A stretch of 64,000 bases of DNA. It comes from Escherichia phage FEC19. The stretch lies in the sequence record MH816966; one strand, 5' to 3'. A program made the position numbers and the translations under genes. Within the stretch, counting starts at the first letter, position 1. The number at the start of each line of letters is the position of its first letter. This document shows, one piece after another, positions 16,359-30,636 of the stretch. The notes beneath the pieces are model-generated. The model was not told the DNA's origin, did no database searches, and saw nothing but the letters and a program-made list of their open reading frames with translations.

Positions 16359-16517
16359 TGTTGACGTAAATTTACGAAAAATAAAACTGAAAATCAGTTT
16401 AATTAAAGTGGCATCGCCGCCAGAGTTTTTAGTTGCTACTGGCGGCGACTGAAGGCATAATTAAGTTATCCCAAACGGGGAATATAAAATAAACTAATTT
16501 ATTTAAGGACTGTGAAT

Positions 16518-17357
16518 ATGGCCGAAGCAATCAAAGTATTATCTAAAGAAGAAAAACAAGCAGCTGCAGCAGAACGTCGTCGCGTGGCTGAAGAAAAACG
16601 CCTGGCTAAAAAGAAAGAAGCCGAAGAAAAACGCCAGAAGCGTGAGCAGGAAAAACAAGCCAAGCGTGAAGAAGCTGCGCTGAAACGCAAGCAGGCTGCT
16701 GATGAGAAGGCTCAGAAGCGTGCTGAAGAAGCAGCGAAGAAAGCCAAAGAGCGTGCAGAAAAGGCTGCTGCTAAGAAAGCAGAGCGTGAAGCCGCTAAAG
16801 CAGCAAAAGAAATCGAAAAGGCAAAGGCTAAAGAAGAAGCCAAGCGCCTGAAAGCTGAACAAGCTGCTGCTAAGAAAGCAGAGCGTGATCAAGCCCGTGC
16901 TGCAGCGAAGGCCGAAAAAGAGAAGGCCAAAGAAGAAGCTAAAGCGAAACGCAAGGCAGAGCGTGAAGCTGCTAAGATTGCGGCTAAAGAAGCTGCAGAA
17001 AAGCAGAAAGAACAGCGTAAGAAAGAAGCTGAAGAACGTCGCAAAGCCATCGCAGAACGTAAGGCTGCTAAAAAGGCAAACGGTCAGCGTCGTGCAAAAG
17101 CAACCCACTTCATCTACACTGGCAATGGCCTGAGCCAGCCGCAAGAGCATTCCACCCGTGGACGCGTTCTGGCGGCGATCAAAGAAGGCGAAGTTGGCGT
17201 GGCGCAGTCTATCGATGAGCTGGGCGAAAAAGTTAAAGATCAACTGTTTGGCGCTTCCGTTCGCTCCTACCTGAGCAAGCTGGAAGAGATGGGCCACATC
17301 GAGTTTGTCGATGTTGAATCCAACGAAGATGCCGAAGACGGTGATCAAGCGGAATAA
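16518..17357 (+). CDS. K/A/E-rich low-complexity charged-repeat protein with small globular C-terminal domain
   Basis: ~200 aa of AEEKR/AKKAER-type repeats; ATG at 16518 preferred over GTG at 16512 (AAGGA RBS). Confidence 0.55.
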   Translation: MAEAIKVLSKEEKQAAAAERRRVAEEKRLAKKKEAEEKRQKREQEKQAKREEAALKRKQAADEKAQKRAEEAAKKAKERAEKAAAKKAEREAAKAAKEIEKAKAKEEAKRLKAEQAAAKKAERDQARAAAKAEKEKAKEEAKAKRKAEREAAKIAAKEAAEKQKEQRKKEAEERRKAIAERKAAKKANGQRRAKATHFIYTGNGLSQPQEHSTRGRVLAAIKEGEVGVAQSIDELGEKVKDQLFGASVRSYLSKLEEMGHIEFVDVESNEDAEDGDQAE

Positions 17358-17384
17358 CCTTAGGACGGTTATGCAGCGGTAATT

Positions 17385-17411
17385 GACCCACACTTGTTGT
17401 GGGTCTTTTTT
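17385..17411 (+). terminator. intrinsic terminator
   Basis: gacccaca / tgtgggtc stem followed by tttttt. Confidence 0.7.
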
Positions 17412-17489
17412 CATCTGTACTAAATAAAATGACTTGTTGCTGTAAAATAATTTAGCTATTATACTTCTCATATCACCCACAAAGGACAA

Positions 17490-18485
17490 ATGAACATGAA
17501 ACAACCTGTAATGATTATCGGCGGCGGACTGGCAGGACTTATCACCGCGTGTCACTTCCCGAACTCTGTTGTGTACGAAGCAGGGGAACGAGCGCAACAG
17601 CACAAGGCGCTGCTACGCTTTCGCAGCGAAGAAGTAAGCCGTATTACCGGAATCCCTTTTAAGGCCGTGACAGTTGACAAGGCTGTGTATTTTCGCGGCA
17701 ACTACTATCACGACCATTGCCCAATCAACCTTGCCAATATGTATTCCATGAAGGTCACCAATCAATTTGGCAGCCGTTCAATCATGAAGCTTAAGACTGC
17801 AACGCGTTATATTGCGCCTGATGACTTTTATGATCAGCTTGTCGACAAACTGGGTGACCGCATATTCTTTGATACTCCGGTTGATACTCTTTGCGGCTAT
17901 AGCGAGACGCCAATCATCAACACGTCGCCGCTGCCAGTAATGATGAAGCTTGCTGGGATTGATCAAAAGCTTGATTTCTCATTTGATAAAGCAAACATTC
18001 GCGTTTACCGCTTTAAGATTAAACGTAAGTGTGATTTGTATCAGACAATTTACTTCCCTGACTACTCCGTCAGAACTTACCGCGCATCAATTACTGGTGA
18101 CACGCTTATCATTGAAACAATTCCTTTGGTCAGCGTGAGTGAAGCTGCAGTTGAAGCCGCTGGCGGCATCACTCGTTACCGTGACATGAAGCTGCGCGCA
18201 GAAGTCGACGAAGTGTTGACAGCCTTTGGCCTCTCATGGAGTGACATTGCTCTTGAAGAAGTTGAAAAGGTCGACCAGAAATATGGCAAGATTGTCGACA
18301 TTCCGAAAGACTTGCGACACGCCCTACTCCTGCAGCTGACTATGGATTTGAACGTGTTCAGTGTCGGTCGATTTGCTACCTGGCGCAACATTTTGCTTGA
18401 TGACGTTGCCCATGACCTTGTTGAAGTTGAAAAACTCATCAAAGCAAATAACTATCAAAAATTTGCTTATATTGCTAATAAATAA
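17490..18485 (+). CDS. FAD/NAD(P)-binding Rossmann-fold oxidoreductase
   Basis: N-terminal VMIIGGGLAGLITA (GxGxxG) followed by acidic residue. Confidence 0.55.
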   Translation: MNMKQPVMIIGGGLAGLITACHFPNSVVYEAGERAQQHKALLRFRSEEVSRITGIPFKAVTVDKAVYFRGNYYHDHCPINLANMYSMKVTNQFGSRSIMKLKTATRYIAPDDFYDQLVDKLGDRIFFDTPVDTLCGYSETPIINTSPLPVMMKLAGIDQKLDFSFDKANIRVYRFKIKRKCDLYQTIYFPDYSVRTYRASITGDTLIIETIPLVSVSEAAVEAAGGITRYRDMKLRAEVDEVLTAFGLSWSDIALEEVEKVDQKYGKIVDIPKDLRHALLLQLTMDLNVFSVGRFATWRNILLDDVAHDLVEVEKLIKANNYQKFAYIANK

Positions 18486-18550
18486 TTTGCTTTCTGCTTC
18501 AATGGGCGTATACTTTAATCATTGAAGCAGAACTCATAGAGGAAACGAAA

Positions 18551-18997
18551 ATGAAACGAATCACTGGAATCGCGCTTGCCGCTACTGCTATTCTCGGCAC
18601 CATGTATATGGAAGCGACTGAAGCTGCCATCCGTACTTCCGATTCAATCGCTGTTTACGATTGCGAAGCGATGGACGGCAAGACCTCAGCAACGACTGGT
18701 GCAAAGATTACCACTTACATCGGTGTGAACGAGCAAGAAGGTCTGAATATTCAGATTCAAGGATTCACAGGGAAAGGTACCAACCGTACTCCGTGGATGC
18801 AACGTTTCACTTTCGTCCAACCTCGTTCAACTGGCGACTTTATCAATCTGATTGGTGAAAACCGTTCTGGTGCAGAAATCTTTACATCAATGAGTTCTAA
18901 TAATGAACCAAAGAAAAGTTTTCAGTTGCTTTATAACGCACAATTCGTTTATCATTGCACCTTCTCTGGTGATCAGCAACTAGTGAATTACCGTTAA
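18551..18997 (+). CDS. hypothetical protein with N-terminal signal-peptide-like segment
   Basis: MKRITGIALAATAILGTMYMEA; preceded by 11-bp perfect inverted repeat flanking TATACT. Confidence 0.45.
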   Translation: MKRITGIALAATAILGTMYMEATEAAIRTSDSIAVYDCEAMDGKTSATTGAKITTYIGVNEQEGLNIQIQGFTGKGTNRTPWMQRFTFVQPRSTGDFINLIGENRSGAEIFTSMSSNNEPKKSFQLLYNAQFVYHCTFSGDQQLVNYR

Positions 18998-19010
18998 TAG
19001 GATAATTAAA

Positions 19011-19841
19011 ATGAAAGTTGAATTAATTCGATACACCCAAGATGCACTTGACCTTTTGCTGGAAACAAAGAACACGCGCATGACTGGTAAGCCTGTCTCT
19101 GAGATGACGGAATCAGAGAAGCAAGAGCATTGGCGCTACATGCTTGATACAATCAAGTCGCCTTTTGACTTTGTGGACTATATCTTTGACATCACCGATG
19201 TTTCAAAGAATATGACCCATCAGATGGTGCGCACACGCACAGGCGCATATCAAGAACGCACCAGCCGCGCTCAGGAGTCGTCTGCATTTGATGCGATTCG
19301 TCCGAAGGCATTCTCACACCAAAATCCAGAGTTGATTGATCAATGTGAAGCATTTGGGACTGATGAAGAGCACCAGTCTTTACTTCAAAAGCAATACTTA
19401 GCAGAGAAGTGGGATGATGCGATGGCGACTATCGATGTTTTGTATCAAGAGCTTCGCGCGGCTGGCGCAGAGATTCAAGATGCACGTGCCGTGTTGCCTT
19501 CTAATATGCAAACGCATATCATGGCAAAGTTCAACTTGCGCACGCTGCAACAGATGGCGTCAAACCGCTTGTGCACGCGCACTCAAGGCGAGTATCAAGA
19601 AGTATTCCGCGCGATGGTTGCTGAAGTCCTCAAGGTGCACCCGTGGGCAAATCCATTATTACAGCCGCAATGCATCGGTATGGGTAAATGCGCGTTTCCT
19701 CGTCATGGCAAAGCCCATTGCCCTTGGTATCGTGATTGGATGGATACCACGGCACAGCAAGAAGAGTTGCGCATCCAGTTTTGGAGTGCGATGCCAATCA
19801 CCAACAATCCAGTTGCTAAAGATGGAGTATCAAAAGGATGA
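19011..19841 (+). CDS. ThyX-like protein (flavin-dependent thymidylate synthase family), divergent
   Basis: Segment DITDVSKNMTHQMVRTRTGAYQERTSR resembles the ThyX RHR-x7/8-S region but with RTR; Cys/His-containing C-terminal extension. Confidence 0.5.
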   Translation: MKVELIRYTQDALDLLLETKNTRMTGKPVSEMTESEKQEHWRYMLDTIKSPFDFVDYIFDITDVSKNMTHQMVRTRTGAYQERTSRAQESSAFDAIRPKAFSHQNPELIDQCEAFGTDEEHQSLLQKQYLAEKWDDAMATIDVLYQELRAAGAEIQDARAVLPSNMQTHIMAKFNLRTLQQMASNRLCTRTQGEYQEVFRAMVAEVLKVHPWANPLLQPQCIGMGKCAFPRHGKAHCPWYRDWMDTTAQQEELRIQFWSAMPITNNPVAKDGVSKG

Positions 19842-20710
19842 GCATTAAAAACAGCGAAATCTTAAACGTATTCGACCTTGACGGAACGCTGTTTGATGAC
19901 CGTTGGCGCTTAGACCGCATCAAGGTGGCAGGTCCGTTGTCAGACTATGATGACTATCACAGCGGTATTGGTTATGATCAGTTCTATCCTCACATTGCAT
20001 CAGCAGTAGAGTCGGCATCTCTTCGCGGTGAGGCGGTTGAATATTGGACTGCAAGGCCAGAAAAATACAGACAAGTGACTTTTGAACGTCTGGATAATGT
20101 TTTTCCTTTTGATGAATTTACAATCAAGATGAGAGACTATGGCGACAAACGTCCATCAACTATTATGAAATCTGCATGGCTATCGCACGCATTGCGGCAC
20201 GGCGATTATCGAATCATCAATGTATTCGACGACCGACAAGACGTACTCGCGCGGATGCAAGATGAAGCATTGTATTATAATTCCGTTGCTCAAAATAAAA
20301 TCGCTTTTACATTTAATCTTTGCAAGGCAGGTGAAGTGGTGCAACAATTAGCAATTGATCCAAGCGCAACAGGGCAAGAAGAGACTAAGGCTGTGGAAGT
20401 TGAACAATCTCCGGCAACTGCCGCCGATATTCTTGATGCAATGGCAGCAACCTTCCGTGAGCGCAACGCTGTCTATGGTGATAACGCTGTGATGGTAGGT
20501 CAGGTTATGCAAGTGCTTTTCCCTAATGGCGTGACGTTGAAAACGCCGGAAGACTACCACATGTGGCATCTGTTCGAGCTTAAGATTGTCAAGCTTACAC
20601 GCTTCGCAATCAGCGGCCTGAAGCACGAAGACTCTATACACGATGATGGTGTTTACAGCGCCATGTGTGAACGTCTTGTTAACGCCCATAATATTAATTT
20701 CAATAAATAG
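19838..20710 (+). CDS. HAD-superfamily phosphatase with additional C-terminal domain
   Basis: VFDLDGTLFDD (DxDGT) and NVFDDRQD motifs; ~130-aa C-terminal region of unknown function. Confidence 0.55.
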   Translation: MSIKNSEILNVFDLDGTLFDDRWRLDRIKVAGPLSDYDDYHSGIGYDQFYPHIASAVESASLRGEAVEYWTARPEKYRQVTFERLDNVFPFDEFTIKMRDYGDKRPSTIMKSAWLSHALRHGDYRIINVFDDRQDVLARMQDEALYYNSVAQNKIAFTFNLCKAGEVVQQLAIDPSATGQEETKAVEVEQSPATAADILDAMAATFRERNAVYGDNAVMVGQVMQVLFPNGVTLKTPEDYHMWHLFELKIVKLTRFAISGLKHEDSIHDDGVYSAMCERLVNAHNINFNK

Positions 20711-20775
20711 TTTACTTGTGCGTTTCGATGAGTTATATTTATCTCATCGAAACGAAGTCCAAAAAGGATAAATAA

Positions 20776-21459
20776 ATGAAAAAAGTAATTGTTGTAACTG
20801 GCTGCAATTCCGGTCTTGGTAAATCCATTTTTGACACCCTTGGCGCTTACGGTCATGAAGTTGTCGGTATTGATTTGGAGAACGGCTATGACATCCGTAA
20901 CGCGAAACAGATGAAAGAGCTTCTCTCTCAATACGACGTAGAAGGCTTGATCAACTGCGCTGGCGTCAACTCCAACAACTGGTTCGAAGATGTTAACTAC
21001 GAAGAGTTCAATCGCGTTATGCACACCAACGCCTTCTCTTTCGTCAACACGACTCAGGCCGCGCTGAAAAGTCTTATCGACAACAAAGGTTTTGTGATCA
21101 ATATCGTTTCTAACGCTGCGCATATTCCTATGACGTCCAGCTTGTGTTATAATGCTTCCAAGGCTGCTGCGCTCATGATTAGCAAGCAGATGGCTCACGA
21201 GCTTACGCCTAAATACGGGATCACGGTATTCTCTATTAGTCCTAACAAGCTACGTGGTACTGGCATGTCCAAACAAATTGAAGATGCTGTTTGCGCGACT
21301 CGCGGCTGGACTCCTGAGTATGCTGCTGAATACCAGAAAAAGGCGTTGATGAATGGATTGGAGACTGAGCCGCAAGTAATTGCTGACTTCATTCGCCATA
21401 TCTTAATTACGGGCGCATGGCGCTTTATGTCTGGTACTGATATTCCATTTGGGAAATAA
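20776..21459 (+). CDS. short-chain dehydrogenase/reductase (SDR)
   Basis: VTGCNSGLGKS cofactor motif and YNASK catalytic motif. Confidence 0.8.
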   Translation: MKKVIVVTGCNSGLGKSIFDTLGAYGHEVVGIDLENGYDIRNAKQMKELLSQYDVEGLINCAGVNSNNWFEDVNYEEFNRVMHTNAFSFVNTTQAALKSLIDNKGFVINIVSNAAHIPMTSSLCYNASKAAALMISKQMAHELTPKYGITVFSISPNKLRGTGMSKQIEDAVCATRGWTPEYAAEYQKKALMNGLETEPQVIADFIRHILITGAWRFMSGTDIPFGK

Positions 21460-21462
21460 ATC

Positions 21463-21633
21463 ATGACTATCAAAGTTGTTGTAGAAGTGATTGGCGACGT
21501 GGCAGAAGTGAAGATTGATCAAGAAGGCGTTGGATTTGAAGTAATAAGAATCGAAAACGCAAAGATTAACCACGAGCGCGTCGGTTCAATTGAGACTTAT
21601 TCCATAGAAGGCAACACAGTAATTAATCAATAA
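21463..21633 (+). CDS. small hypothetical protein (56 aa, not in ORF track)
   Basis: Fills gap between SDR and VOC genes; weak RBS. Confidence 0.3.
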   Translation: MTIKVVVEVIGDVAEVKIDQEGVGFEVIRIENAKINHERVGSIETYSIEGNTVINQ

Positions 21634-21653
21634 TATTTAATTAAGGAAACAAA

Positions 21654-22205
21654 ATGCCACATTTTAAAATTGAACAAATCGCCCTGTCAATTCCAGATGC
21701 TCAGCGCGCACAGGATTTTCTGGCTAAAATCGGCCTGACAGAATGGTTCCATGATCATGTTGTTGCTACTGGTCGCGTATTTGAAGCTGATGACTTTAAA
21801 GGTCAGCGCGGCGATTGCACCAACGAAGCTGACTTGCGCTTCAACTATCAAGCTGGCAACGGCACCGATGGCGGCGCTGGTAAGCCTCTTGAACTTGAAA
21901 TTCTTGACTACACGAAAGGCCGCAACTGGATTAACGAAAACATCGAATACATCGATGCACATGACAATCAGGTTAGCCATCTTGGTATGCACGTGACTGC
22001 CGCTGAACTTGCTGAATGGCGCAAGTTCTTTAAAGAAGAAGGCATTCAGGTTGCGCAGGAAGTTGTGACCGACTCTCACACCAACCCAAACATTGCTGGT
22101 CAGCGTCGTTACAACTATGTGATCTTTGATACGCGTGAAATCATTGGTGTCGACCTTAAGTTCATCGTGCGGTTGAATCAAGACGGTACTCCGTACACTG
22201 TATAA
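21654..22205 (+). CDS. VOC-fold (glyoxalase/dioxygenase-like) protein, putative
   Basis: Two beta-alpha-beta-like modules with His residues (HFKIEQIALSIPD, SHLGMHV); weak. Confidence 0.4.
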   Translation: MPHFKIEQIALSIPDAQRAQDFLAKIGLTEWFHDHVVATGRVFEADDFKGQRGDCTNEADLRFNYQAGNGTDGGAGKPLELEILDYTKGRNWINENIEYIDAHDNQVSHLGMHVTAAELAEWRKFFKEEGIQVAQEVVTDSHTNPNIAGQRRYNYVIFDTREIIGVDLKFIVRLNQDGTPYTV

Positions 22206-22221
22206 CGAATCGTGAATCTGT

Positions 22222-22247
22222 GGCCGTCCTAATGGGCGGCCTTTTTG
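22222..22247 (+). terminator. intrinsic terminator
   Basis: ggccgtcc taat gggcggcc then ttttt. Confidence 0.6.
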
Positions 22248-22259
22248 TAGGAGGCCAAT

Positions 22260-22802
22260 GTGTTATTTCTCCCTTATGACTTCGAAACAACCGGATTAAC
22301 CGTGCACCCGAAAGCGCCGCTTGGAATGCAGCCGCGCCCTATTGAATTTGCAGGCCTGTTGACGGATGGAAAAGAGATTCTTGAAACTTTCGAGTTCATA
22401 ATTAATCCTGAAATTGTGATTGAAGAAATCATCACAAAGATTACCGGATTAACCAATGAAGACCTTGAGTGCAATCCACCCTTTATTCATTTCGTTCCGC
22501 AACTAAAAGACATCTTCAAGAAGACTGATGCCACTATCGCGCACAACCATGCGTTCGATAAGAACATCCTTGATTATGCATTGCAGCGCGAAGGTCTTAC
22601 ACTTGGTGATGTTAATTTTCCAGAAATAAACATTTGTACAGTCGAGCAAACCTTGCCTATTTTTGGCCGAAGAGTTAAGCTTCAAGAGCTGTATGAATTA
22701 TATTTCGGAAAATATGAACAGAAGCACCGTGCATTAGACGACGTAATATTACTGCACAAAGTCTGCCAACAAATTGGCGTATATGACATCTGGAGTAAAT
22801 AA
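22260..22802 (+). CDS. dnaQ: DnaQ-like 3'-5' proofreading exonuclease
   Basis: Exo I YDFETTG, Exo II AHNHAFD, Exo III HRALDD; GTG start with strong GGAGG RBS. Confidence 0.8.
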   Translation: MLFLPYDFETTGLTVHPKAPLGMQPRPIEFAGLLTDGKEILETFEFIINPEIVIEEIITKITGLTNEDLECNPPFIHFVPQLKDIFKKTDATIAHNHAFDKNILDYALQREGLTLGDVNFPEINICTVEQTLPIFGRRVKLQELYELYFGKYEQKHRALDDVILLHKVCQQIGVYDIWSK

Positions 22803-25699
22803 TGTTTCCACAATTGAGAGTTCGCAGCGGTTACACGTTCAAAGAAGTATATGGACGGCATCCTGAAATTATAGCACGGCTCAAAGAGTTGGGCTGCGAA
22901 GTCGCGGCATTAGTTGATAACAATACATGGGGTCACGTTCGCTGGGAAAAGGAATGCCAGAAAAATGATATTAAGCCTATGTTCGGCATGGAGATTCCAA
23001 TCATCGACCCTGATGCGGACCCGAAAAAGGGATTCAAACCGAAGGCTTGGATATTGGCGCTTGACCTGAAATCCTTTTACAATGCGACCACGCTTGCAAC
23101 ACAGCGCGGCGGATTGACCCGTGCAGAGTTCGGGGCGCTGGATGGCGTCGTTAAATTCTGTGGCGGTGCCGTGGAGCTGCTGCGGCCAGAGGACTACGAT
23201 TATATAGACGTCAACCCATCATCGTTCCTTTTGGCCAAGCGCCAGGTATTGGCTCACCGCAGCAACGGAAGGCCGCTGGTTTTAACCGGATACAACCACA
23301 TGCCTTCACCTGAGCACGTTGACTTTGCTTATGCTTGGGAAGTGCGCGACACGGTTAAGCCGCACTGCATCGTTGACGCGGAAGACTTGCGCAAACAGCT
23401 TAAAGGAATCCTGACCGAAGATGAGTTGAATCAAGCAACGGCCAATGCGGTTGATATTGCAAACGGAATCGTTGGGCTTGACCTGAAGCTGCGCAAGGCA
23501 CCGATTATCCACCTTGCTGGTGACATGGTAAAGCTTGCTCGTGAGGGGATGGAGTACCGCCTCAAAGCAGGTCACATCAAAGAATGGACGCAGGAATATG
23601 AGGACCGATTCAACGAAGAGATTCACCAGATTCAGCTGAAAGATTTCGACTCATACTTTCTGGTGGTAGCGGACCTTGTACGATTTGCAAAAACAAAAAT
23701 GCTCGTCGGACCCGCTCGCGGCTCATCGGCTGGTTCACTGGTTTGTTATTGCCTCGGCATCACGGAAGTTGACCCAATCCCGTATAAGCTGCTATTTGCC
23801 CGATTCATCGACGTAAGCCGCGCCGACCTCCCTGATATTGATATTGACTTTGAGGACACCAAACGCTATATGGTGTTTGATTACCTCAAAGAAAAATACG
23901 GCGAAATGAACGTTGCAAAGCTTGGAAACATCAACACGCTTAAGGCCAACTCAGTAATGGCTCAGGTTGGTAAGAAGTTCAACATTGGATATCACGAAAC
24001 GGCCAACATTAAAAACGCATTGCTTGAATACTCATCCGGTGACGCCCGTTATGGTCACGGTCTGGAGGATACCTTTGCAACAACGACCACGGGCCAAGAG
24101 TTCGTGGCGAAATATCCTGACGCCGCGCGATGCATGGGTGACCTTGAGATTCACCCTTCTCACACTGGCGTTCATGCAGCGGGAATCATTGTGTGTAATG
24201 ACCCAATCTCTGATTACTGTACTGTAACGGCGGAAGGGATTGCGCAAATTGATAAGCCTGACAGCGAATACCTTAACCTTTTGAAGCTTGATGCGTTGGG
24301 CCTTCGTACCCTCGGCATCATTTCTGATACTGGCGTGATAGATGCTGAAACGCTGTACGGAATCAAGCTTGATGATCAAAGCGTCCTTGACATCCTTAAC
24401 GAAAACAAAATGTCAGGCATCTTCCAGTTTGAAGGTGACGCTGTACGCTCAGTAACCAACTTTGTGCACGTTGATAACTTTAACAAAATCGATAACCTGA
24501 CAGCACTTGGTCGACCTGGCCCGTTGTCATCCGGTATGGCCCAAAAATACATCGAACGCGCGGCAGGACGTGCGCCGATTGAGTACGACGTGCCGCAGCT
24601 TGAGCCGTACTTAAAAGAGACTTACGGCGTGTTCCTTTACCAAGAGCAAATCATGGCCGTGGTTAAAGAGATTGGTTCATTTGACTGGGCGAAAACATCA
24701 GCCGTGCGTAAGGCGATGTCAGGTCGTAAGGGTGAGGAATACTTTAACAAGCTTGGCGAAGACTTCGTTGCAGGCGCAATAAATAACGGCGTACCGGAAG
24801 CGGATGCAAGAAAGCTTTGGCAGGCGATGGCGACGTTCGGGTCATGGGGCTTTAACAAGTCACACTCCGTGTCATACGCGGTCGTAACCTACTGGACCTT
24901 GTGGCTTAAACGACACTACCCGTTGGAATTTGCCGCTGCTTGCTTACGCGCTGCTAAGGACGAAGACCAGACGATTGCGATATTACGTGAACTTGCGAAG
25001 GAAGGCGTGGATTATGTGCCAATCGACCCTGATCACTCTTCAATGAACTGGACCATCGCTAACGGAAAGCTAATCGGCGGCATCATGAACGCTAAAGGGT
25101 ACGGAATGGTGAAGGCGATGAAGTACATCGAAGCACGTGAAGCCGGAACCTTAACGCAAAAGCAGAAGGATGCATTGGCCAATGCTGAAGTCAAATACGG
25201 CGACCTTACAGAGATGCACACCAAGTTCGGCTGGGCATATAATGACCCATATCTTATTGGCGTCACTTCCGGCGCTTCAATACGCCAGATGAAGGAAGTA
25301 GGCGATGATGAGCGTGCAATAGTAATCGGCAAACTGACCAAGAAAGTGCTGGCAGACGAGAACGAAGCAACACGCATCCGTAAACGTCTTGAGCGCGGCA
25401 TTTACACAAAGCACGGCAAACTTAAAAAGGGTCTTCAAGCTGATGGTCGCTACGCAGAGTTTGACCAGTATGGAAACAAGCTTGAAACTCAATTCATCGA
25501 CCTTATGTGCAAGGACGATTCGACCGACTCGCCAATGCGCTTCAGGATTCGCCCAGAGAAGTTCCAGAAATACGGGAAGTACATTGCAGAGAACGTCGGG
25601 AACGGTGCATTCTTCCTGATGAAAGGCCGCAAGCTTGAAGGTATTGATATGTTCATCGTCGACGTTATCAAACAGGTGTATCCAGATGGCAACAAATAA
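22802..25699 (+). CDS. dnaE: DNA polymerase III alpha-like (DnaE family, PHP N-terminus)
   Basis: N-terminal LRVRSGYTF PHP-like start, PDIDIDFED catalytic aspartates, LLKLDALGLRTL motif; 965 aa. Confidence 0.85.
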   Translation: MFPQLRVRSGYTFKEVYGRHPEIIARLKELGCEVAALVDNNTWGHVRWEKECQKNDIKPMFGMEIPIIDPDADPKKGFKPKAWILALDLKSFYNATTLATQRGGLTRAEFGALDGVVKFCGGAVELLRPEDYDYIDVNPSSFLLAKRQVLAHRSNGRPLVLTGYNHMPSPEHVDFAYAWEVRDTVKPHCIVDAEDLRKQLKGILTEDELNQATANAVDIANGIVGLDLKLRKAPIIHLAGDMVKLAREGMEYRLKAGHIKEWTQEYEDRFNEEIHQIQLKDFDSYFLVVADLVRFAKTKMLVGPARGSSAGSLVCYCLGITEVDPIPYKLLFARFIDVSRADLPDIDIDFEDTKRYMVFDYLKEKYGEMNVAKLGNINTLKANSVMAQVGKKFNIGYHETANIKNALLEYSSGDARYGHGLEDTFATTTTGQEFVAKYPDAARCMGDLEIHPSHTGVHAAGIIVCNDPISDYCTVTAEGIAQIDKPDSEYLNLLKLDALGLRTLGIISDTGVIDAETLYGIKLDDQSVLDILNENKMSGIFQFEGDAVRSVTNFVHVDNFNKIDNLTALGRPGPLSSGMAQKYIERAAGRAPIEYDVPQLEPYLKETYGVFLYQEQIMAVVKEIGSFDWAKTSAVRKAMSGRKGEEYFNKLGEDFVAGAINNGVPEADARKLWQAMATFGSWGFNKSHSVSYAVVTYWTLWLKRHYPLEFAAACLRAAKDEDQTIAILRELAKEGVDYVPIDPDHSSMNWTIANGKLIGGIMNAKGYGMVKAMKYIEAREAGTLTQKQKDALANAEVKYGDLTEMHTKFGWAYNDPYLIGVTSGASIRQMKEVGDDERAIVIGKLTKKVLADENEATRIRKRLERGIYTKHGKLKKGLQADGRYAEFDQYGNKLETQFIDLMCKDDSTDSPMRFRIRPEKFQKYGKYIAENVGNGAFFLMKGRKLEGIDMFIVDVIKQVYPDGNK

Positions 25700-27702: not shown

Positions 27703-27966
27703 ATGGTACGCATCCTTGAACGTTACAAAAATGAAGCTACTGGCGCAATCGCGTTCAAACGTCTTTTGGTCAAAGAAATTGACGGTATGTTCCGCGTTGT
27801 AAAAGAGTTTGATTATGGCAACGGTGCTGGGGTGAATACCGTAATTATGCCTGGCATCAAGGCATATAAGACTTTAAAAGGCGCTGAGAAGGCTTTGGCG
27901 GCTTGGAAACCTGAACGTTATCAAATGACCCGTGTTGAAGGGCTAATGCAAGAAGGTAAAATATGA
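27703..27966 (+). CDS. hypothetical protein
   Basis: 87-aa ORF with promoter-like TTGACT-18-ATAATT upstream. Confidence 0.45.
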   Translation: MVRILERYKNEATGAIAFKRLLVKEIDGMFRVVKEFDYGNGAGVNTVIMPGIKAYKTLKGAEKALAAWKPERYQMTRVEGLMQEGKI

Positions 27967-28520
27967 GCAATATTAATTGGGAAGATGATTTGCCGCAGGT
28001 TGCTCCTGAGAGCATTCAGGAGCGTCTTGCGCGCTTAGTATCTGAATTGGCAGAGCGCCAAGAAGCTTTGACAGAGCTTGAAGATGAAGCTGATATGCAA
28101 AAGCAGCGCATCAGTGAAATCAAAACTGTTCTGCTTCCTGGCGTTATGGATGAGCTTGGCGTGTCCGAAATCAAGCTTGAAGACAAGACCAAAATCAAGG
28201 TCGAGTCAAAAGTAAACGCTTCAATCAAGAAAGAAAATGAATTGAAGGTATTCGATTGGCTTGTCAACAATGGTTACGGCGGCTTGATCAAGTCCAGCGT
28301 CACGGCTGAGTTCGGTCGCGAAGAAATCGAGCAAGCGCAAGAGATTGTTGCCGCGCTGCGTGAAGATGGTGTTGAAGCCACGTTGAAACAAGGCGTTCAT
28401 TCTGCTACACTGAAGTCGTTTGTAAAAGAACAGCTGGAAGCGGGCAATCCAGTTAGTGAAGATATTAGCGTTTTTGAATACAAAGAAGCTAAAATAACCT
28501 TGCCTAAAAGCAAAAAGTAA
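27963..28520 (+). CDS. hypothetical acidic coiled-coil protein
   Basis: 185-aa ORF. Confidence 0.45.
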   Translation: MSNINWEDDLPQVAPESIQERLARLVSELAERQEALTELEDEADMQKQRISEIKTVLLPGVMDELGVSEIKLEDKTKIKVESKVNASIKKENELKVFDWLVNNGYGGLIKSSVTAEFGREEIEQAQEIVAALREDGVEATLKQGVHSATLKSFVKEQLEAGNPVSEDISVFEYKEAKITLPKSKK

Positions 28521-28579: not shown

Positions 28580-29440
28580 ATGTCTAAGAAAGAAACCACC
28601 GAAGTTGCAGTGAAAAACACCCAGATGTCCGCTATGGCTGATTTTGTCGACATGACCGATTTTGGCGCTGGTTTTGAAGGTGCCGATGCCGATGCGTATG
28701 CCATTCCTTTTATCGTCGTACTGCAGAAGATGTCTCCTATGGTCGACGAAGATGATCCAAAACACGTTCCTGGCGCAAAGGCTGGCATGCTTTACAACAC
28801 CGTTACTGGTGAGTTGTATGACGGCAAGAAAGGCGTGCAGATCATCCCTTGCGCATTCAAACGCACCTTCATTCTTTGGGGCGGTCGCGAGTCCGACGAT
28901 AAAGGCTTTAAAGGTGAATTCACCAAAGAGCACGTTGATGCAGAAGTCGCGGCAGGCCGCGCTGTTGAGATCAACGGTAAGGTATTCGTGCCGGACGAAA
29001 ACGGCAAGGTGCACGAGAAGAAATCTCCTTACTACGCAGATACACGCAACCACTTCGTAATTCTGTTGAACGAAGAAACTGGTGAATTTGGTAGCGCAAT
29101 GCTGTCTCTGACTTCTTCCATGATCAAGCCGTCTCGCATGCTGATGACCGCTCTGCAGCAGAAGAAAGTTCAGACTCCGCAGGGTCTGAAAACGCCGCCG
29201 ACCTTTATGAACATCGTTCGCATGGGTACTGCATCCCAGTCCAAAGACGGCAACACCTGGTCTGTTCTGAAGTTTGAGCTGGAAGGTCTGGTGCAGGACA
29301 AAGGCCTGTACGAAGTCGCCAAGGCATTCCACAACGACGTAGTGGGCGGTAACGTTAACATCGACCGCAGCAAGCAGGAAGAAGCAAGCGGTGCCGCTGG
29401 TCCTGTCAATGAAACTCCTACCGACGCAGAAGAGTTTTAA
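28580..29440 (+). CDS. putative single-stranded DNA-binding protein
   Basis: Acidic C-terminal tail ending ...TDAEEF, reminiscent of SSB tails; position in replication block. Confidence 0.35.
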   Translation: MSKKETTEVAVKNTQMSAMADFVDMTDFGAGFEGADADAYAIPFIVVLQKMSPMVDEDDPKHVPGAKAGMLYNTVTGELYDGKKGVQIIPCAFKRTFILWGGRESDDKGFKGEFTKEHVDAEVAAGRAVEINGKVFVPDENGKVHEKKSPYYADTRNHFVILLNEETGEFGSAMLSLTSSMIKPSRMLMTALQQKKVQTPQGLKTPPTFMNIVRMGTASQSKDGNTWSVLKFELEGLVQDKGLYEVAKAFHNDVVGGNVNIDRSKQEEASGAAGPVNETPTDAEEF

Positions 29441-29497: not shown

Positions 29498-30016
29498 ATG
29501 ATAGAAAGAATTGTACCGCTCTTGAAGATTCTGGCCCTTGTTGGCGCGTTTGCCGCTGGATCATACGTTGAAGACCTGCAGCAAACCAACGCATCACTGG
29601 CCAAGGATAATCAATATCTGACATCGCTTAATGAGCGTAAGGACAAGATAAATGCACTCGAAGAGCAAATTGCATCTTTACAGGTTGAATCGGCATCGGC
29701 ATATGAGAAAGGTCGCCAGGAAGCGCAACTGGTTGCTGATGACACTATTGCTCGTTACAAGTCTGGGAATATCAAGTTGCGCGCGCAACTCAGCTGCTCC
29801 CGTGAGTTACTCAGGAGTATGCCCGACTCTGCGACCACTGGACGCCTCTCTATCCCAGAAGGAAACTGTGGACTATCAGAAGAAGATGTCAGTTTTCTTG
29901 TTCAGTTCGCCGCAGAAACAAATCGATTAAAAGAGAAAGTTAATAGCTTGATTGATACTTATAATCAGGCTAAAATAAAAATCGATCAATTCAATGCATC
30001 AAAGGAAAATAAATGA
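29498..30016 (+). CDS. Rz-like i-spanin, putative
   Basis: N-terminal TM segment, coiled-coil periplasmic region, NIKLRAQLSC resembling the Rz RRRLHIKAVC region. Confidence 0.45.
   Translation: MIERIVPLLKILALVGAFAAGSYVEDLQQTNASLAKDNQYLTSLNERKDKINALEEQIASLQVESASAYEKGRQEAQLVADDTIARYKSGNIKLRAQLSCSRELLRSMPDSATTGRLSIPEGNCGLSEEDVSFLVQFAAETNRLKEKVNSLIDTYNQAKIKIDQFNASKENK
29739..29930 (+). CDS. Rz1-like o-spanin embedded in +1 frame of the Rz-like gene, putative
   Basis: MTLLLVTSLGISSC lipobox-like signal then short Pro-containing mature part with second Cys. Confidence 0.4.
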   Translation: MTLLLVTSLGISSCARNSAAPVSYSGVCPTLRPLDASLSQKETVDYQKKMSVFLFSSPQKQID

Positions 30017-30636
30017 AACAGATTTATGCAAACATTCGCCAGTGGGCTTCTGACCGTAACATCATCCAAGGTTGCGACCTTAAGGACCAATACCCGAAGC
30101 TTATCAGCGAGTTCGGGGAGTTAACCGACCACGTTGATCAACTCCATGACCTTGTGTTCTTCGACCCTGAAATTGGATATACAGAGCAAGCCATCTGTGA
30201 CTTGCAGGCAGCAATTAAGGACGACATCGGCGATTGCCTTGTTGTGTTGACCATCCTGGCGGCGCAAAACGGTACTGAAATCGAAAACATTAATGGCGGC
30301 GGTTGTGCTGATAAAGGCGCTCACCCTCATTCATTCATCCTTCGCCTGGCAAAGACCCTTGGACGGCTTGGTGATGCTATTGCTAAGAATCAGACCATGG
30401 ATATTGACGTCACCATCATGGCCGCAGTCGATTACCTTTCCGGCGTAGCTCATGATTATGGCCTTCGCTTATCCGACTGTGCGCAAGCGGCCTACGAAGA
30501 CATCAAGGACCGCAAAGGTGTCATGTACAACGGAACGTTCATCAAATCTACTGATCCAGCTTATGAGCACTCCTGCAAAATGGTAAAGAAGCTGGAACTT
30601 GAAGACCGTGTGATCAGAGAAGTTACAGGACAATAA
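30013..30636 (+). CDS. mazG: MazG-like nucleotide pyrophosphohydrolase
   Basis: LISEFGELTDHV and DDIGDCLVVLTILA resemble MazG EExxE / metal-binding helices. Confidence 0.55.
   Translation: MKQIYANIRQWASDRNIIQGCDLKDQYPKLISEFGELTDHVDQLHDLVFFDPEIGYTEQAICDLQAAIKDDIGDCLVVLTILAAQNGTEIENINGGGCADKGAHPHSFILRLAKTLGRLGDAIAKNQTMDIDVTIMAAVDYLSGVAHDYGLRLSDCAQAAYEDIKDRKGVMYNGTFIKSTDPAYEHSCKMVKKLELEDRVIREVTGQ

What the first reader, a model, noticed from the sequence alone, without database searches (positions are those of the whole stretch)
19011..19841. ThyX-like protein with an altered signature motif and a Cys/His-rich C-terminal extension
The region DITDVSKNMTHQMVRTRTGAYQERTSR aligns by eye with the ThyX signature (RHR-x7/8-S) but has RTR in place of RHR. 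The protein is also ~30-50 aa longer than typical ThyX, ending in a Cys/His-containing tail (GKCAFPRHGKAHCPWY). An altered substrate-binding motif could mean a changed substrate or product, such as hydroxymethylation or another pyrimidine.
Basis: inference. Interest (0 to 1): 0.65.

Follow-up and report, generated by a model that had tools for sequence, protein, structure and literature searches.

The report
Atypical phage ThyX-like flavoenzyme
A phage gene labelled "thymidylate synthase" belongs to a large, untested branch of the flavin-dependent ThyX family that lacks residues the textbook enzyme needs, and it may start the unusual thymine modifications recently found in related phages rather than make ordinary thymidylate.

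Summary
ORF 19011-19841 (+, 276 aa) of this Wifcevirus-type coliphage has a ThyX fold, RTR where ThyX has RHR, and a 64-aa tail.

Tm His53, Tyr91, Ser88 and His178 are replaced by Ile48, Ala87, Thr84 and Arg190, while the dUMP/FAD-binding arginines are kept. It scores below NCBI's thyX equivalog cut-off.

This pattern defines a large phage/metagenome branch, about 1,500 clusters at 50% identity. I found no characterised member.

The tail holds three of four all-or-none cysteines (C188, C221, C227, C237), a probable metal site. The histidines are not conserved, and the module also occurs with canonical active sites.

The gene sits in a conserved cassette with a UGM/PPOX-like flavoprotein and a HAD-phosphatase fusion, beside a DnaE-type polymerase and MazG.

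Pbunavirus relatives carry the orthologue (48% identity). They were reported in 2025 to have sugar-bearing hypermodified thymidine with no biosynthetic genes assigned. Wifceviruses resist most tested restriction systems without explanation.

- **Best reading (0.45):** a flavin-dependent dUMP C5-hydroxymethyl-type transferase feeding that pathway.
- **Main rival (0.38):** a true thymidylate synthase with a relocated aromatic residue and a partner reductase.

Only biochemistry can decide.

The parts
19011..19841 (+). ThyX-like ORF, 276 aa (non-canonical Thy1-family flavoenzyme)
   Evidence: ORF. Pfam Thy1 E = 6.6e-29. AF2 pLDDT 87.2. Foldseek 1o26_A E = 4.8e-11, TM 0.75 normalised by target. TIGR02170 score 78.8, below the 87.9 cut-off.
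19230..19238 (+). R74-T75-R76 codons, in place of the ThyX RHR
   Evidence: Invariant in 120 of 120 close homologues.
19260..19271 (+). T84-S85-R86-A87, equivalent to Tm S88-G89-R90-Y91. The 'lid'/acid Tyr is replaced by an invariant Ala.
   Evidence: Alignment. R86 and A87 invariant. Role of Tyr91.
19152..19154 (+). I48, equivalent to Tm His53 (which stacks on folate/flavin and H-bonds Tyr91)
   Evidence: I/L/V in 112 of 125 representatives. Role of His53.
19593..19595 (+). Y195 (Tm Ile183): aromatic residue that covaries with loss of Tyr91
   Evidence: Y/F/W at this position whenever position 91 is not Tyr, and Ile when it is. Invariant in A1.
19572..19721 (+). Cys4 module: C188 (19572-4), C221 (19671-3), C227 (19689-91), C237 (19719-21), spacing Cx32Cx5Cx9C. 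Probable metal site.
   Evidence: Invariant. All four present in 66 of 125 representatives and almost never in part. Same Cx5Cx9C spacing in Gordonia phage Sampudon gp84.
19647..19841 (+). C-terminal extension (residues 213-276) beyond the Thy1 domain
   Evidence: No solved ThyX structure covers it.
17490..18485 (+). Partner flavoprotein, 331 aa, GxGxxG motif, UGM/PPOX-like two-domain FAD fold
19838..20710 (+). HAD (PNKP-type) phosphatase fused to a conserved ~100-aa helical domain. Its start overlaps the ThyX stop (ATGA).
   Evidence: Pfam HAD_PNKP E = 5.4e-8. PHROG 4889. Orthologues follow the ThyX-like gene in R12, WTB, F8, 14-1 and TM30.
20776..21459 (+). Short-chain dehydrogenase/reductase (FabG-like). 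An insert found in the Wifcevirus locus only.
   Evidence: Pfam adh_short E = 1e-31. Detected only in the Wifcevirus locus.
22260..25699 (+). 3'-5' exonuclease plus DnaE-type DNA polymerase, immediately downstream
   Evidence: Annotation of relatives. tblastn.
30013..30636 (+). MazG-like nucleotide pyrophosphatase of the same replication module
   Evidence: PHROG 1992 E = 3e-62. Annotation.

Best explanation
The ORF encodes a ThyX-fold enzyme that still binds FAD and a pyrimidine 5'-mononucleotide and still moves a one-carbon unit from the flavin N5 onto C5 of dUMP. It belongs to a non-canonical, phage-dominated branch that has lost the His53/Tyr91 pair and the RHR histidine. I propose that it does not finish the reaction as thymidylate. 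In canonical ThyX the exocyclic 5-methylene-dUMP intermediate is reduced by FADH-. Here I propose that it is captured by water, giving 5-hydroxymethyl-dUMP, or by another hydroxyl nucleophile. On this reading it is the flavin-dependent counterpart of the ThyA-type dUMP hydroxymethylases that start every known thymidine-hypermodification pathway. The co-conserved UGM/PPOX-like flavoprotein, the HAD phosphatase fusion, MazG and the phage's own DnaE-type polymerase would supply the remaining pre-replicative functions: flavin or sugar chemistry, removal of dTMP/dTTP, and incorporation. The Cys4 module is a metal site (Zn or Fe-S) next to the FAD-binding helix and is not specific to this chemistry. 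What is shown: the fold, the family branch, the residue changes, the cassette and its co-occurrence. What comes from the literature: the hypermodification in Pbunavirus and the restriction resistance of Wifcevirus. What is inferred: the product, the roles of the partners, and that Wifcevirus DNA is modified at all.
For: (1) ThyX fold, with the dUMP/FAD arginines kept: Tm Q75, R78, R80, R90, R147, R165 and R174 correspond to Q71, R74, R76, R86, R159, R177 and R186. (2) Residues needed for the late steps are lost. Tyr91 is replaced by an invariant Ala87, His53 by Ile48, Ser88 by Thr84. Tyr91 is the lid over C5/N5 and is called strictly conserved and critical. Y91 mutants are 100-1000-fold slower, and PolB Y99A is almost inactive. 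(3) The score is below the TIGR02170 thyX equivalog cut-off, 78.8 against 87.9. (4) The ThyX mechanism passes through an exocyclic methylene nucleotide, so the proposed diversion needs no new chemistry. (5) In PhiW-14, SP10, ViI and M6 the phage-encoded TS homologue is a dUMP hydroxymethylase. It is accompanied by a dTTPase, a dTMPase and a phage polymerase. 5-hmdU is later converted in sequence-specific contexts to hyper-T or to T (PMC8989533). (6) Pbunavirus F8 and 14-1 have hypermodified T in TG context, about a quarter of all T, with nucleoside masses 362 and 390 and no genes assigned. Both masses equal 5-hmdU plus a tetritol or a pentose, minus water. These phages carry the orthologue (48% identity, all branch-specific residues kept) and no other annotated TS homologue. 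Pfam scans of 10 of their unassigned proteins found no glycosyltransferase, kinase or TET/JBP. [quoted passage not shown] (8) The flavoprotein/ThyX-like/HAD cassette is conserved in PB1-like myophages, in the Ss1 and PVA7 podophages and in a Rhizobium T4-like phage. Counts of the two genes in the phage collection are near-identical.
Against: No biochemical datum exists for any member of this branch. Loss of Tyr91 covaries with gain of an aromatic residue at position 195, which reads like compensation that preserves the original reaction. The branch is very broad (about 1,500 clusters at 50% identity). It includes phages with ordinary nucleotide-metabolism genes nearby, such as RNR and dUTPase in Rhizobium TM30, where a plain thymidylate synthase is the simplest expectation. 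The downstream enzymes of known 5-hmdU pathways were not recognised in the proteins scanned: no 5-HMUDK P-loop kinase, no aGPT-Pplase, no dNMP kinase. Not every ORF of the window was scanned. A nucleotide-level step does not explain the TG specificity. Three quarters of Pbunavirus T is canonical. DNA modification has not been shown for any Wifcevirus, and its in vivo resistance to EcoRI/EcoRV (sites without TG) does not match the Pbunavirus pattern.
Confidence: 0.45

Rival explanations
1. It is a genuine flavin-dependent thymidylate synthase (dUMP to dTMP) whose active site has been rebuilt. An aromatic residue from the R186 helix (Y195) takes over the stacking/lid role of Tyr91. Thr75 replaces His79 as an FAD-phosphate ligand. 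The adjacent UGM/PPOX-like flavoprotein, possibly through the Cys4 metal site, supplies electrons in place of direct NADPH oxidation. The HAD fusion and MazG shape the dUMP/dUTP pools. Thymine hypermodification in relatives would then be made from T in DNA by other, unrecognised genes.
For: There is strict covariation: non-Tyr at position 91 goes with Y/F/W at 195, and Tyr91 goes with Ile. All nucleotide- and FAD-binding arginines, including the dUMP-activating R174 equivalent, are conserved. The branch is widespread in many phage types, some with RNR and dUTPase next to it. It is embedded in replication modules. 75% of Pbunavirus T is ordinary. No downstream 5-hmdU-processing genes were recognised. 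Every ThyX-family enzyme I found characterised so far is a C5 methylase.
Against: All the characterised family members examined here are of the canonical type, including phage L5/D29 gp48 (GHES...RHRx7SQRY). The score is below the equivalog cut-off. F and W are common at position 195, so the acid function of Tyr91 is not replaced. A phage that hypermodifies T by the known logic would not want a dTMP synthase. This model gives no reason for the tight linkage to a UGM/PPOX-like protein, a fold class not typical of simple flavin reductases.
Confidence: 0.38
2. The enzyme attaches a sugar-derived group at nucleotide level. One route is capture of the exocyclic methylene by a sugar or polyol hydroxyl. 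The other is use of an aldose, not formaldehyde/CH2-THF, as the carbonyl that forms the flavin-N5 adduct, as UDP-galactopyranose mutase does with its sugar. The product would be 5-(polyhydroxyalkyl)- or C-glycosyl-dUMP. The neighbouring UGM-like flavoprotein, the HAD phosphatase and (in Wifcevirus) the SDR would prepare the sugar.
For: The reported masses fit equally well as dU + aldopentose + 2H - H2O = 362 and dU + aldohexose - H2O = 390. ThyX can use free formaldehyde through an N5-carbinolamine. The best structural match of the partner, by two methods, is UGM, an enzyme that forms a flavin-N5-sugar adduct. SDR and sugar-phosphatase-like genes are in the operon. The folate-stacking His53 and Glu144 are changed.
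Against: This is purely arithmetic and analogical. PPOX and amine oxidases score nearly as well as UGM. The preprint text read here does not specify a C-C linkage. The TG specificity is unexplained. The ThyX-like proteins of F8 and 14-1 are 94% identical although their modifications differ. No polymerase is known to accept such bulky dNTPs.
Confidence: 0.07
3. It acts on a different pyrimidine nucleotide (dCMP, UMP, CMP), or it is a catalytically degenerate nucleotide-binding or regulatory subunit.
For: PolB shows that ThyX-family enzymes can shift substrate, to UMP. Several active-site positions differ, namely R74 to H, S88 to T and E144 to Q.
Against: The residues that read uracil and the phosphate in ThyX are conserved. 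There is strong purifying selection on the whole active-site loop across about 1,500 clusters. No cytosine modification has been reported in the lineage.
Confidence: 0.1

Closest known systems
Canonical flavin-dependent thymidylate synthase ThyX (T. maritima TM0449, PDB 1O26; also M. tuberculosis, H. pylori, PBCV-1 A674R, mycobacteriophage L5/D29 gp48)
   Same: Same fold (Foldseek E = 4.8e-11, TM 0.75 normalised by target). Same Pfam family. Same set of arginines and the Gln that bind dUMP and FAD.
   Different: RTR in place of RHR. His53 to Ile, Ser88 to Thr, Tyr91 to Ala, His178 to Arg, Arg74 to His, Glu144 to Gln. Below the TIGR02170 cut-off. A 64-aa tail with a Cys4 module. Obligate genomic partner flavoprotein. 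About 20% identity. L5 gp48 is fully canonical.
ThyA-type dUMP hydroxymethylases of hmU and thymidine-hypermodifying phages (SPO1, PhiW-14, SP10, ViI, M6)
   Same: The proposed role is the same: the phage's only TS homologue, placed with a pyrophosphatase, a phosphatase and a phage polymerase, in a lineage whose relatives have hypermodified T.
   Different: No sequence or structural relationship, because ThyA and ThyX are unrelated folds. The chemistry would be flavin-based. The partner DNA kinase and aGPT-Pplase genes of those systems were not found here. The role is inferred, not shown.
PolB / SVIThyX2 (ThyX homologues that C5-methylate UMP in polyoxin biosynthesis)
   Same: A precedent that the ThyX scaffold has been recruited for something other than dTMP supply.
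   Different: PolB keeps the canonical catalytic residues. Its Tyr99, the equivalent of Tm Tyr91, is essential (Y99A almost inactive). It is still a methylase and has 38% identity to ThyX proteins. The present protein lacks that Tyr.
UDP-galactopyranose mutase / protoporphyrinogen oxidase class of two-domain flavoproteins (for the 331-aa neighbour)
   Different: 11-17% identity. About 140 residues shorter than 4dsg. No Pfam or NCBIfam hit. UGM, PPOX and amine oxidase cannot be told apart at this level.

Membership tests
Thy1/ThyX superfamily (Pfam PF02511) | HMM score above the Pfam gathering threshold | tested here: met
   101.5 bits against a cut-off of 24.8, residues 5-212.
Thy1/ThyX superfamily (Pfam PF02511) | ThyX alpha/beta fold | tested here: met
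   AF2 pLDDT 87.2. Foldseek 1o26_A E = 4.8e-11, probability 1.00, TM 0.75 normalised by target.
Canonical FDTS, EC 2.1.1.148 (NCBIfam TIGR02170 equivalog) | Score at or above the curated equivalog cut-off | tested here: not met
   78.8 bits against a cut-off of 87.9.
Canonical FDTS, EC 2.1.1.148 | ThyX signature RHR-x7-S | tested here: not met
   RTR-x7-T at residues 74-84. No RHR elsewhere in the protein. 120 of 120 close homologues have RTR.
Canonical FDTS, EC 2.1.1.148 | Conserved Tyr91 (lid/general acid) and His53 (folate/flavin stacking) | tested here: not met
   Ala87 (invariant) and Ile48. Roles of these residues.
Canonical FDTS, EC 2.1.1.148 | dUMP- and FAD-binding Arg/Gln set (Tm Q75, R78, R80, R90, R147, R165, R174) | tested here: met
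   Q71, R74, R76, R86, R159, R177 and R186 are present. They are conserved in 117-125 of 125 representatives.
Canonical FDTS, EC 2.1.1.148 | FAD-bound homotetramer; NADPH- and CH2-THF-dependent dTMP formation; thyA complementation | not testable with these tools
   Needs protein biochemistry or genetics.
Pre-replicative thymidine-replacement module of hyper-T phages (PMC8989533) | Phage TS homologue acting as dUMP hydroxymethylase | tested here: inconclusive
   It is the only TS homologue annotated in Wifcevirus (27-56 kb of Bas99) and Pbunavirus records. The active-site changes are compatible with this role. The product is unknown.
Pre-replicative thymidine-replacement module of hyper-T phages | dTTPase/dUTPase and dTMPase | tested here: inconclusive
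   A MazG-like pyrophosphatase (30013-30636) and a HAD phosphatase (19838-20710) are present. Their specificities are unknown.
Pre-replicative thymidine-replacement module of hyper-T phages | dNMP kinase for the modified nucleotide | tested here: not met
   None was recognised among the window proteins scanned. A DUF3310 'nucleotide kinase'-type domain occupies the equivalent fusion position only in podophage Ss1. It is unrelated to the window's C-terminal domain.
Post-replicative thymidine hypermodification (5-HMUDK + aGPT-Pplase) | P-loop 5-hmU DNA kinase and HhH aGPT-Pplase genes | tested here: not met
   No such Pfam or PHROG hits in the cassette, the other unknown proteins scanned, or the scanned F8/14-1 variable genes. 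Not every small ORF was scanned.
Post-replicative thymidine hypermodification | Non-canonical thymidine in virion DNA | not testable with these tools
   Reported for Pbunavirus F8 and 14-1. For Wifcevirus there is only unexplained RM resistance.
Cys4 metal-binding module (Zn or Fe-S) | Four co-conserved Cys | tested here: met
   C188, C221, C227 and C237 are invariant. All-or-none pattern: 66 of 125 representatives have CCCC, with only two partial patterns.
Cys4 metal-binding module (Zn or Fe-S) | Spatial clustering of the four Cys, and metal identity | not testable with these tools
Metal analysis needs protein.

The most novel reading that the evidence does not exclude
The ThyX-like enzyme, working with the UGM-like flavoprotein, uses a flavin-N5-sugar (aldose) adduct, not the N5-CH2OH carbinolamine. 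It would forge a C-C bond between C5 of dUMP and C1 of a pentose or hexose, giving 5-(tetrahydroxypentyl)-dU (362 Da) and a C-glycosyl-dU (390 Da). That would be a flavin-dependent nucleotide C-glycosylation/alkylation with no precedent, and a new route to hypermodified thymidine.
Probability: 0.07. Interest if true: 0.95.

Novelty: new variant of a known kind. Interest (0 to 1): 0.66.

Why it matters
If the branch makes something other than dTMP, it would be the first flavin-dependent, ThyX-type pyrimidine hydroxymethylase or alkyl-transferase. That would be a convergent counterpart of the ThyA-type hydroxymethylases. It would also give the missing first gene for the thymidine hypermodification just reported in Pbunavirus, the P. 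aeruginosa phages said to be most used for personalised therapy (PMC11990801). The same gene could explain why Wifcevirus coliphages resist restriction.

It would further mean that hundreds of database entries called 'thymidylate synthase ThyX' in phages are mis-annotated. The cassette of flavoprotein, ThyX-like gene and HAD fusion could then serve as a genomic marker for hypermodified genomes.

If the branch is instead a true thymidylate synthase, it shows that residues described as strictly conserved and critical (His53, Tyr91, the RHR His) are dispensable when an aromatic residue is relocated and a partner flavoprotein is present. That matters for ThyX mechanism and for inhibitor design.

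Either result is directly testable with one protein and one LC-MS run.

Tried and rejected
- **RHR elsewhere in the protein:** none.
- **Cys4 tail as the signature of the altered chemistry:** rejected. The same CCCC pattern occurs in representatives with His53/His79/Ser88/Tyr91, such as P0223, whose cluster includes a Methanobacteriota MAG protein. It is absent from RNR-type relatives that still have the partner flavoprotein.
- **His residues of the tail as ligands:** rejected, because they are not conserved.
- **The 281-aa upstream gene as an enzyme of the pathway:** rejected. It is a Lys/Glu/Ala-rich low-complexity protein with a small conserved C-terminal domain, called TolA-like elsewhere.
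- **The C-terminal domain of the HAD fusion as a DUF3310/T7 gp1.7-type nucleotide kinase, as in podophage Ss1:** hhalign found no relationship, and Pfam found nothing.
- **Cellular homologues as sole TS of a genome.**
  - Patterns from the close-clade alignment found no relative in 185,579 GTDB genomes.
  - The diverse alignment was too variable to search with.
- **Names for distant representatives:** almost all are unnamed metagenome proteins.
- **A characterised member of the non-canonical branch.**
  - The literature searches found none.
  - The one characterised actinophage enzyme, L5/D29 gp48, is canonical.
- **Recognisable glycosyltransferase, kinase or TET/JBP among the Pbunavirus proteins scanned:** none by Pfam.
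- **A TG-only modification as the explanation of the BASEL restriction pattern:** it does not fit. EcoRI and EcoRV sites lack TG, yet Wifceviruses are not restricted.
- **Sequence-only PDB searches for the 331-aa partner:** uninformative. Only fold comparison worked.
Full report
**Source of the window.** The window is nearly the whole genome of a Wifcevirus-type E. coli myophage. Positions 17000-22000 are 98% identical to vB_EcoM-Ro157lw and 94-98% identical to WFH, Bas98/99 and ECML-117. More distant relatives carrying the same gene are Serratia MyoSmar (78% amino-acid identity), Burkholderia WTB (52%) and about 290 Pseudomonas Pbunavirus (PB1-like) genomes (48%).

**Observation check.**
- It matches Pfam Thy1 (PF02511) at E = 6.6e-29 over residues 5-212 and PHROG 85 'thymidylate synthase'.
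- HMMER against solved ThyX chains aligns VRTRTGAYQERTSR with fRHRTasvnEisgR. MAFFT with T. maritima (Tm) ThyX gives the same register.
- R74-T75-R76 (nt 19230-19238) therefore stands where ThyX has R78-H79-R80, and T84 stands where ThyX has Ser88. There is no RHR elsewhere.
- All 120 nearest homologues have RTR, and T75 is invariant in a 54-sequence alignment.
- The tail is real. Residues 213-276 lie beyond the Pfam domain and beyond the 215 columns that Foldseek aligns to 1o26, yet residues 210-260 are modelled confidently.
- It is Cys-rich, not Cys/His-rich. C221, C227 and C237, with C188 in the core, are invariant. H232 and H236 vary.

**Family and fold.** An AlphaFold2 model built on 54 homologues has mean pLDDT 87.2. 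It matches T. maritima ThyX with E = 4.8e-11 and TM 0.75 normalised by target, at about 20% identity. Sequence similarity to solved ThyX chains is marginal (E about 1e-3). The protein scores 78.8 bits against NCBI's thyX equivalog model, whose cut-off is 87.9. It is a member of the ThyX superfamily, but by the curated test it is not an equivalog of the characterised enzyme.

| T. maritima ThyX | This protein | Note |
|---|---|---|
| His53 | Ile48 | |
| Arg74 | His70 | |
| His79 | Thr75 | the RHR histidine |
| Ser88 | Thr84 | |
| Tyr91 | Ala87 | invariant Ala |
| Glu144 | Gln156 | |
| His178 | Arg190 | |
| Q75, R78, R80, R90, R147, R165, R174 | Q71, R74, R76, R86, R159, R177, R186 | all retained |

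What the literature says about these residues:
- The RHR residues hydrogen-bond the phosphates and ribityl of FAD, so the His is a cofactor ligand and not a substrate ligand. The Tyr forms a lid over uracil C5 and flavin N5 (PMC6514825).
- Tyr91 and Ser88 are described as strictly conserved and critical. Y91 mutants are 100- to 1000-fold slower. His53 stacks on the folate pterin or the reduced flavin and hydrogen-bonds Tyr91 (PMC11940539 and PMC8316439).
- In the UMP methylase PolB, the equivalent Y99A mutant is almost inactive (PMC5003785).

**This is a large branch, not a quirk.** A search of 1.84 billion cluster representatives found 1,504 clusters at E <= 1e-3 and 337 at E <= 1e-10.
- Canonical ThyX proteins would not reach these E-values, because T. 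maritima ThyX scores only about 1e-3 in a database 10,000 times smaller (my inference).
- Among 125 full-length representatives the pattern is general:
  - Tm position 53 is I/L/V in 112.
  - Position 79 is T in 70, H in 26, and Q/S/N in 25.
  - Position 91 is Tyr in only 11.
  - Position 178 is Arg in 90.
- Rhizobium phage TM30 has RNR and Gordonia phage Sampudon has RQR.
- The branch is found in PB1-like myophages, 41-kb podophages (Cronobacter Ss1, Vibrio PVA7, Ralstonia), Rhizobium T4-like phages, Xanthomonas and Xylella phages, haloviruses and actinophages.
- Patterns from the close clade found no relative in 185,579 GTDB species genomes.
- The one characterised actinophage ThyX, L5/D29 gp48, is fully canonical, with GHES...RHRHLSFSVVSQRY. 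I found no characterised member of the non-canonical branch.

**Two covariation results temper the interpretation.**
- Loss of Tyr91 is tightly coupled to gain of an aromatic residue at query position 195 (Tm Ile183). That position is Y, F or W when 91 is not Tyr, and Ile when it is. His53 survives only together with Tyr91. This looks like relocation of an aromatic stacking residue and is the strongest argument that the original reaction could be preserved. Because F and W are common there, the proposed acid role of the Tyr91 hydroxyl is not replaced.
- The four cysteines are all-or-none: 66 of 125 representatives have all four, and only two partial patterns were seen. They also occur with canonical active sites, as in P0223, whose cluster includes a Methanobacteriota MAG protein. 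The Cx5Cx9C spacing recurs in Gordonia phage gp84. The module is therefore an independent metal site, Zn or Fe-S. C188 lies two residues after the FAD/dUMP-binding R186, so the site is probably close to the cofactor (inference). It does not mark the RTR change.

**Genomic context.**
- The gene lies between terminator-like hairpins at 17385-17405 and 22222-22241 (pattern matches only).
- The genes in that interval, in order:
  - a 331-aa protein at 17490-18485;
  - a signal-peptide protein;
  - the ThyX-like gene;
  - a HAD (PNKP-type) phosphatase fused to a conserved helical domain at 19838-20710, whose start overlaps the ThyX stop;
  - an SDR at 20776-21459;
  - a weak VOC-like protein.
- Downstream come a 3'-5' exonuclease, a DnaE-type polymerase, helicases, MazG and a ligase.
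- The trio of flavoprotein, ThyX-like gene and HAD fusion is conserved in several lineages:
  - Pbunavirus (R12, F8, 14-1) and Burkholderia WTB;
  - Cronobacter Ss1, as overlapping orf34-33-32;
  - Vibrio PVA7;
  - Rhizobium TM30, more loosely.
- In the phage collection the flavoprotein occurs in 360 records. Its host distribution mirrors that of the RTR/RNR-type ThyX: Pseudomonas 292 and 292, Escherichia 25 and 25, Serratia 9 and 9, Xanthomonas 6 and 6. It is not among the listed hits from Gordonia, Mycobacterium, Bacillus, Sulfolobus or Clostridium phages, which carry other ThyX types.
- In Ss1 the domain fused to the HAD is DUF3310, PHROG 'nucleotide kinase'. It is unrelated to the window's C-terminal domain.

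**Biological context from the literature.**
[quoted passage not shown] EcoP1_I is the exception (PMC11990801). Bas99 has 38 EcoRI, 8 EcoRV, 92 EcoCFT_II and 89 EcoP1_I sites.
- A 2025 preprint (PMC12191111) reports on Pbunavirus F8 and 14-1.
  - Their DNA had been thought unmodified, but it contains hypermodified thymidine in TG context, about a quarter of all T.
  - The nucleoside masses are 362 and 390.
  - These are interpreted as a tetrose sugar-alcohol derivative and a cyclised aldopentose derivative.
  - No biosynthetic genes were named.
- In every characterised thymidine-hypermodifying phage (PMC8989533):
  - the encoded TS homologue is a dUMP hydroxymethylase;
  - it works with a dTTPase, a dTMPase, a dNMP kinase and a phage polymerase;
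  - 5-hmdU first replaces T completely;
  - it is then converted, in sequence-specific contexts, to the hypermodified base or back to thymine.
- Pbunaviruses encode exactly one annotated TS homologue, the orthologue of this protein, next to a HAD phosphatase and near MazG. Pfam recognises no glycosyltransferase, kinase or TET/JBP among the 10 unassigned proteins scanned.
- Both masses equal 5-hmdU plus a tetritol or a pentose, minus water. They equally equal dU plus a pentose (reductively) or a hexose (with loss of water) joined through carbon (my arithmetic).
- Between F8 and 14-1 the ThyX-like protein is 94% identical and the flavoprotein 97%. The HAD fusion (80%), gp058 (78%), gp012 (73%) and gp070 (56%) diverge more.

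**Most likely mechanism.** I commit to this at 0.45. The enzyme binds FAD and dUMP as ThyX does. It transfers the methylene from the N5-carbinolamine or iminium to C5 and eliminates to the exocyclic 5-methylene nucleotide, steps established for ThyX. Lacking the Tyr91 lid and the His53-Tyr91 gate, it lets water, or another hydroxyl, add to the intermediate before hydride transfer can occur. The product would be 5-hydroxymethyl-dUMP or an alkoxymethyl-dUMP. That is the same divergence that separates ThyA from the ThyA-type hydroxymethylases (established knowledge). The HAD phosphatase and MazG would trim the dTMP/dTTP or dUTP pools. The DnaE-type polymerase would incorporate the analogue. Unidentified DNA-level enzymes would then produce the context-specific final bases.
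- Shown here: fold, residue pattern, cassette, co-occurrence.
- From the literature: the modification in Pbunavirus and the RM resistance of Wifcevirus.
- Inferred: the product, the partner roles, and the existence of a modification in this phage.

**Rivals.**
- **A true thymidylate synthase (0.38).** It would have a relocated aromatic residue (Y195) and a partner reductase. This is supported by the covariation, the conserved arginines, the breadth of the branch, the nearby RNR and dUTPase in TM30, and the absence of recognisable downstream genes.
- **A sugar-carbon or sugar-hydroxyl transfer at nucleotide level (0.07).** The UGM-like partner and the mass arithmetic suggest it. This is the most novel reading not excluded.
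- **Another substrate, or a degenerate protein (0.10).**

**Unresolved points.** These count against all the models. The origin of the TG specificity is unexplained. In vivo EcoRI/EcoRV resistance of Wifcevirus does not match the cleavage of F8 DNA by EcoRI. The role of the UGM/PPOX-like protein is open. The metal in the Cys4 site is unknown.

**Novelty.** The protein is annotated everywhere as 'thymidylate synthase/ThyX', so the gene itself is known. I did not find any description of the following in the searchable literature:
- that it belongs to a coherent branch lacking His53, His79 and Tyr91;
- that this branch travels with a specific second flavoprotein and a HAD fusion;
- that this is the only TS homologue in a lineage now reported to hypermodify thymidine.

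I rate it a new variant of a known kind, with a testable and potentially important functional hypothesis.

Noticed in passing
[not shown]
   Followed up: yes
window 19838-20710 (+): A HAD (PNKP-type) phosphatase is fused to a conserved ~100-aa helical domain (FRxRxxxYGxN...LFPNG...K[LV]TR...DS..D..Y) of unknown family. Its ATG overlaps the ThyX stop codon (ATGA). In podophage Ss1 the fused domain is instead DUF3310, PHROG 'nucleotide kinase', and hhalign finds the two domains unrelated.
   Followed up: partly
window 20776-21459 (+), 21654-22205 (+), 18551-18997 (+): Three genes are inserted in the cassette only in Wifcevirus: an SDR (FabG-like), a 183-aa protein with a weak Glyoxalase_4/VOC hit, and a 148-aa protein with an apparent signal peptide. 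None was detected in the Pbunavirus, Burkholderia or podophage loci.
   Followed up: partly
window 16512-17357 (+): A 281-aa protein has a Lys/Glu/Ala-rich low-complexity N-terminal part and a ~90-aa conserved C-terminal domain, annotated TolA-like elsewhere. Its N-terminal part differs between Pbunavirus F8 and 14-1.
   Followed up: partly
window 17385-17405 and 22222-22241 (+): Two 8-bp-stem, T-tailed terminator-like hairpins bracket the run of genes from the flavoprotein through ThyX, HAD and SDR to p183, suggesting one transcription unit. The total number of terminator-like sites in the region is not above the shuffled expectation.
   Followed up: no
whole window: There are 13 EcoRI, 7 EcoRV and 78 EcoP1I sites, none of which contains TG/CA. 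26% of T are followed by G. Published data say Wifceviruses are restricted only by EcoP1_I, so a purely TG-specific modification like that reported for Pbunavirus would not explain their EcoRI/EcoRV resistance.
   Followed up: partly
L009/L010 (F8) against L011/L012 (14-1): These two phages are reported to carry different thymidine hypermodifications. Against a 95-99% identical backbone, the most divergent proteins are gp070 (56%, phrog_5310, weak CxxCxGxG-like hit), gp012 (73%, DUF6011), gp016 (74%), gp075 (77%), gp058 (78%), the HAD fusion gp057 (80%) and the N-terminal half of gp066. 14-1 also has an extra 'methyltransferase', gp13. gp069-gp071 have no counterpart in Wifcevirus.
   Followed up: partly
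window 27963-28520 and 28580-29440 (+): A pair of Pam3 gp33-like (DUF7307) and Pam3 gp34-like proteins is conserved in Pbunavirus (F8 gp052/gp051), within the replication-lysis region. Their function is unknown.
   Followed up: no
window 19414-19848 (+): A 144-aa ORF in another frame lies wholly inside the ThyX-like gene. It is probably spurious and I saw no evidence for it.
   Followed up: no
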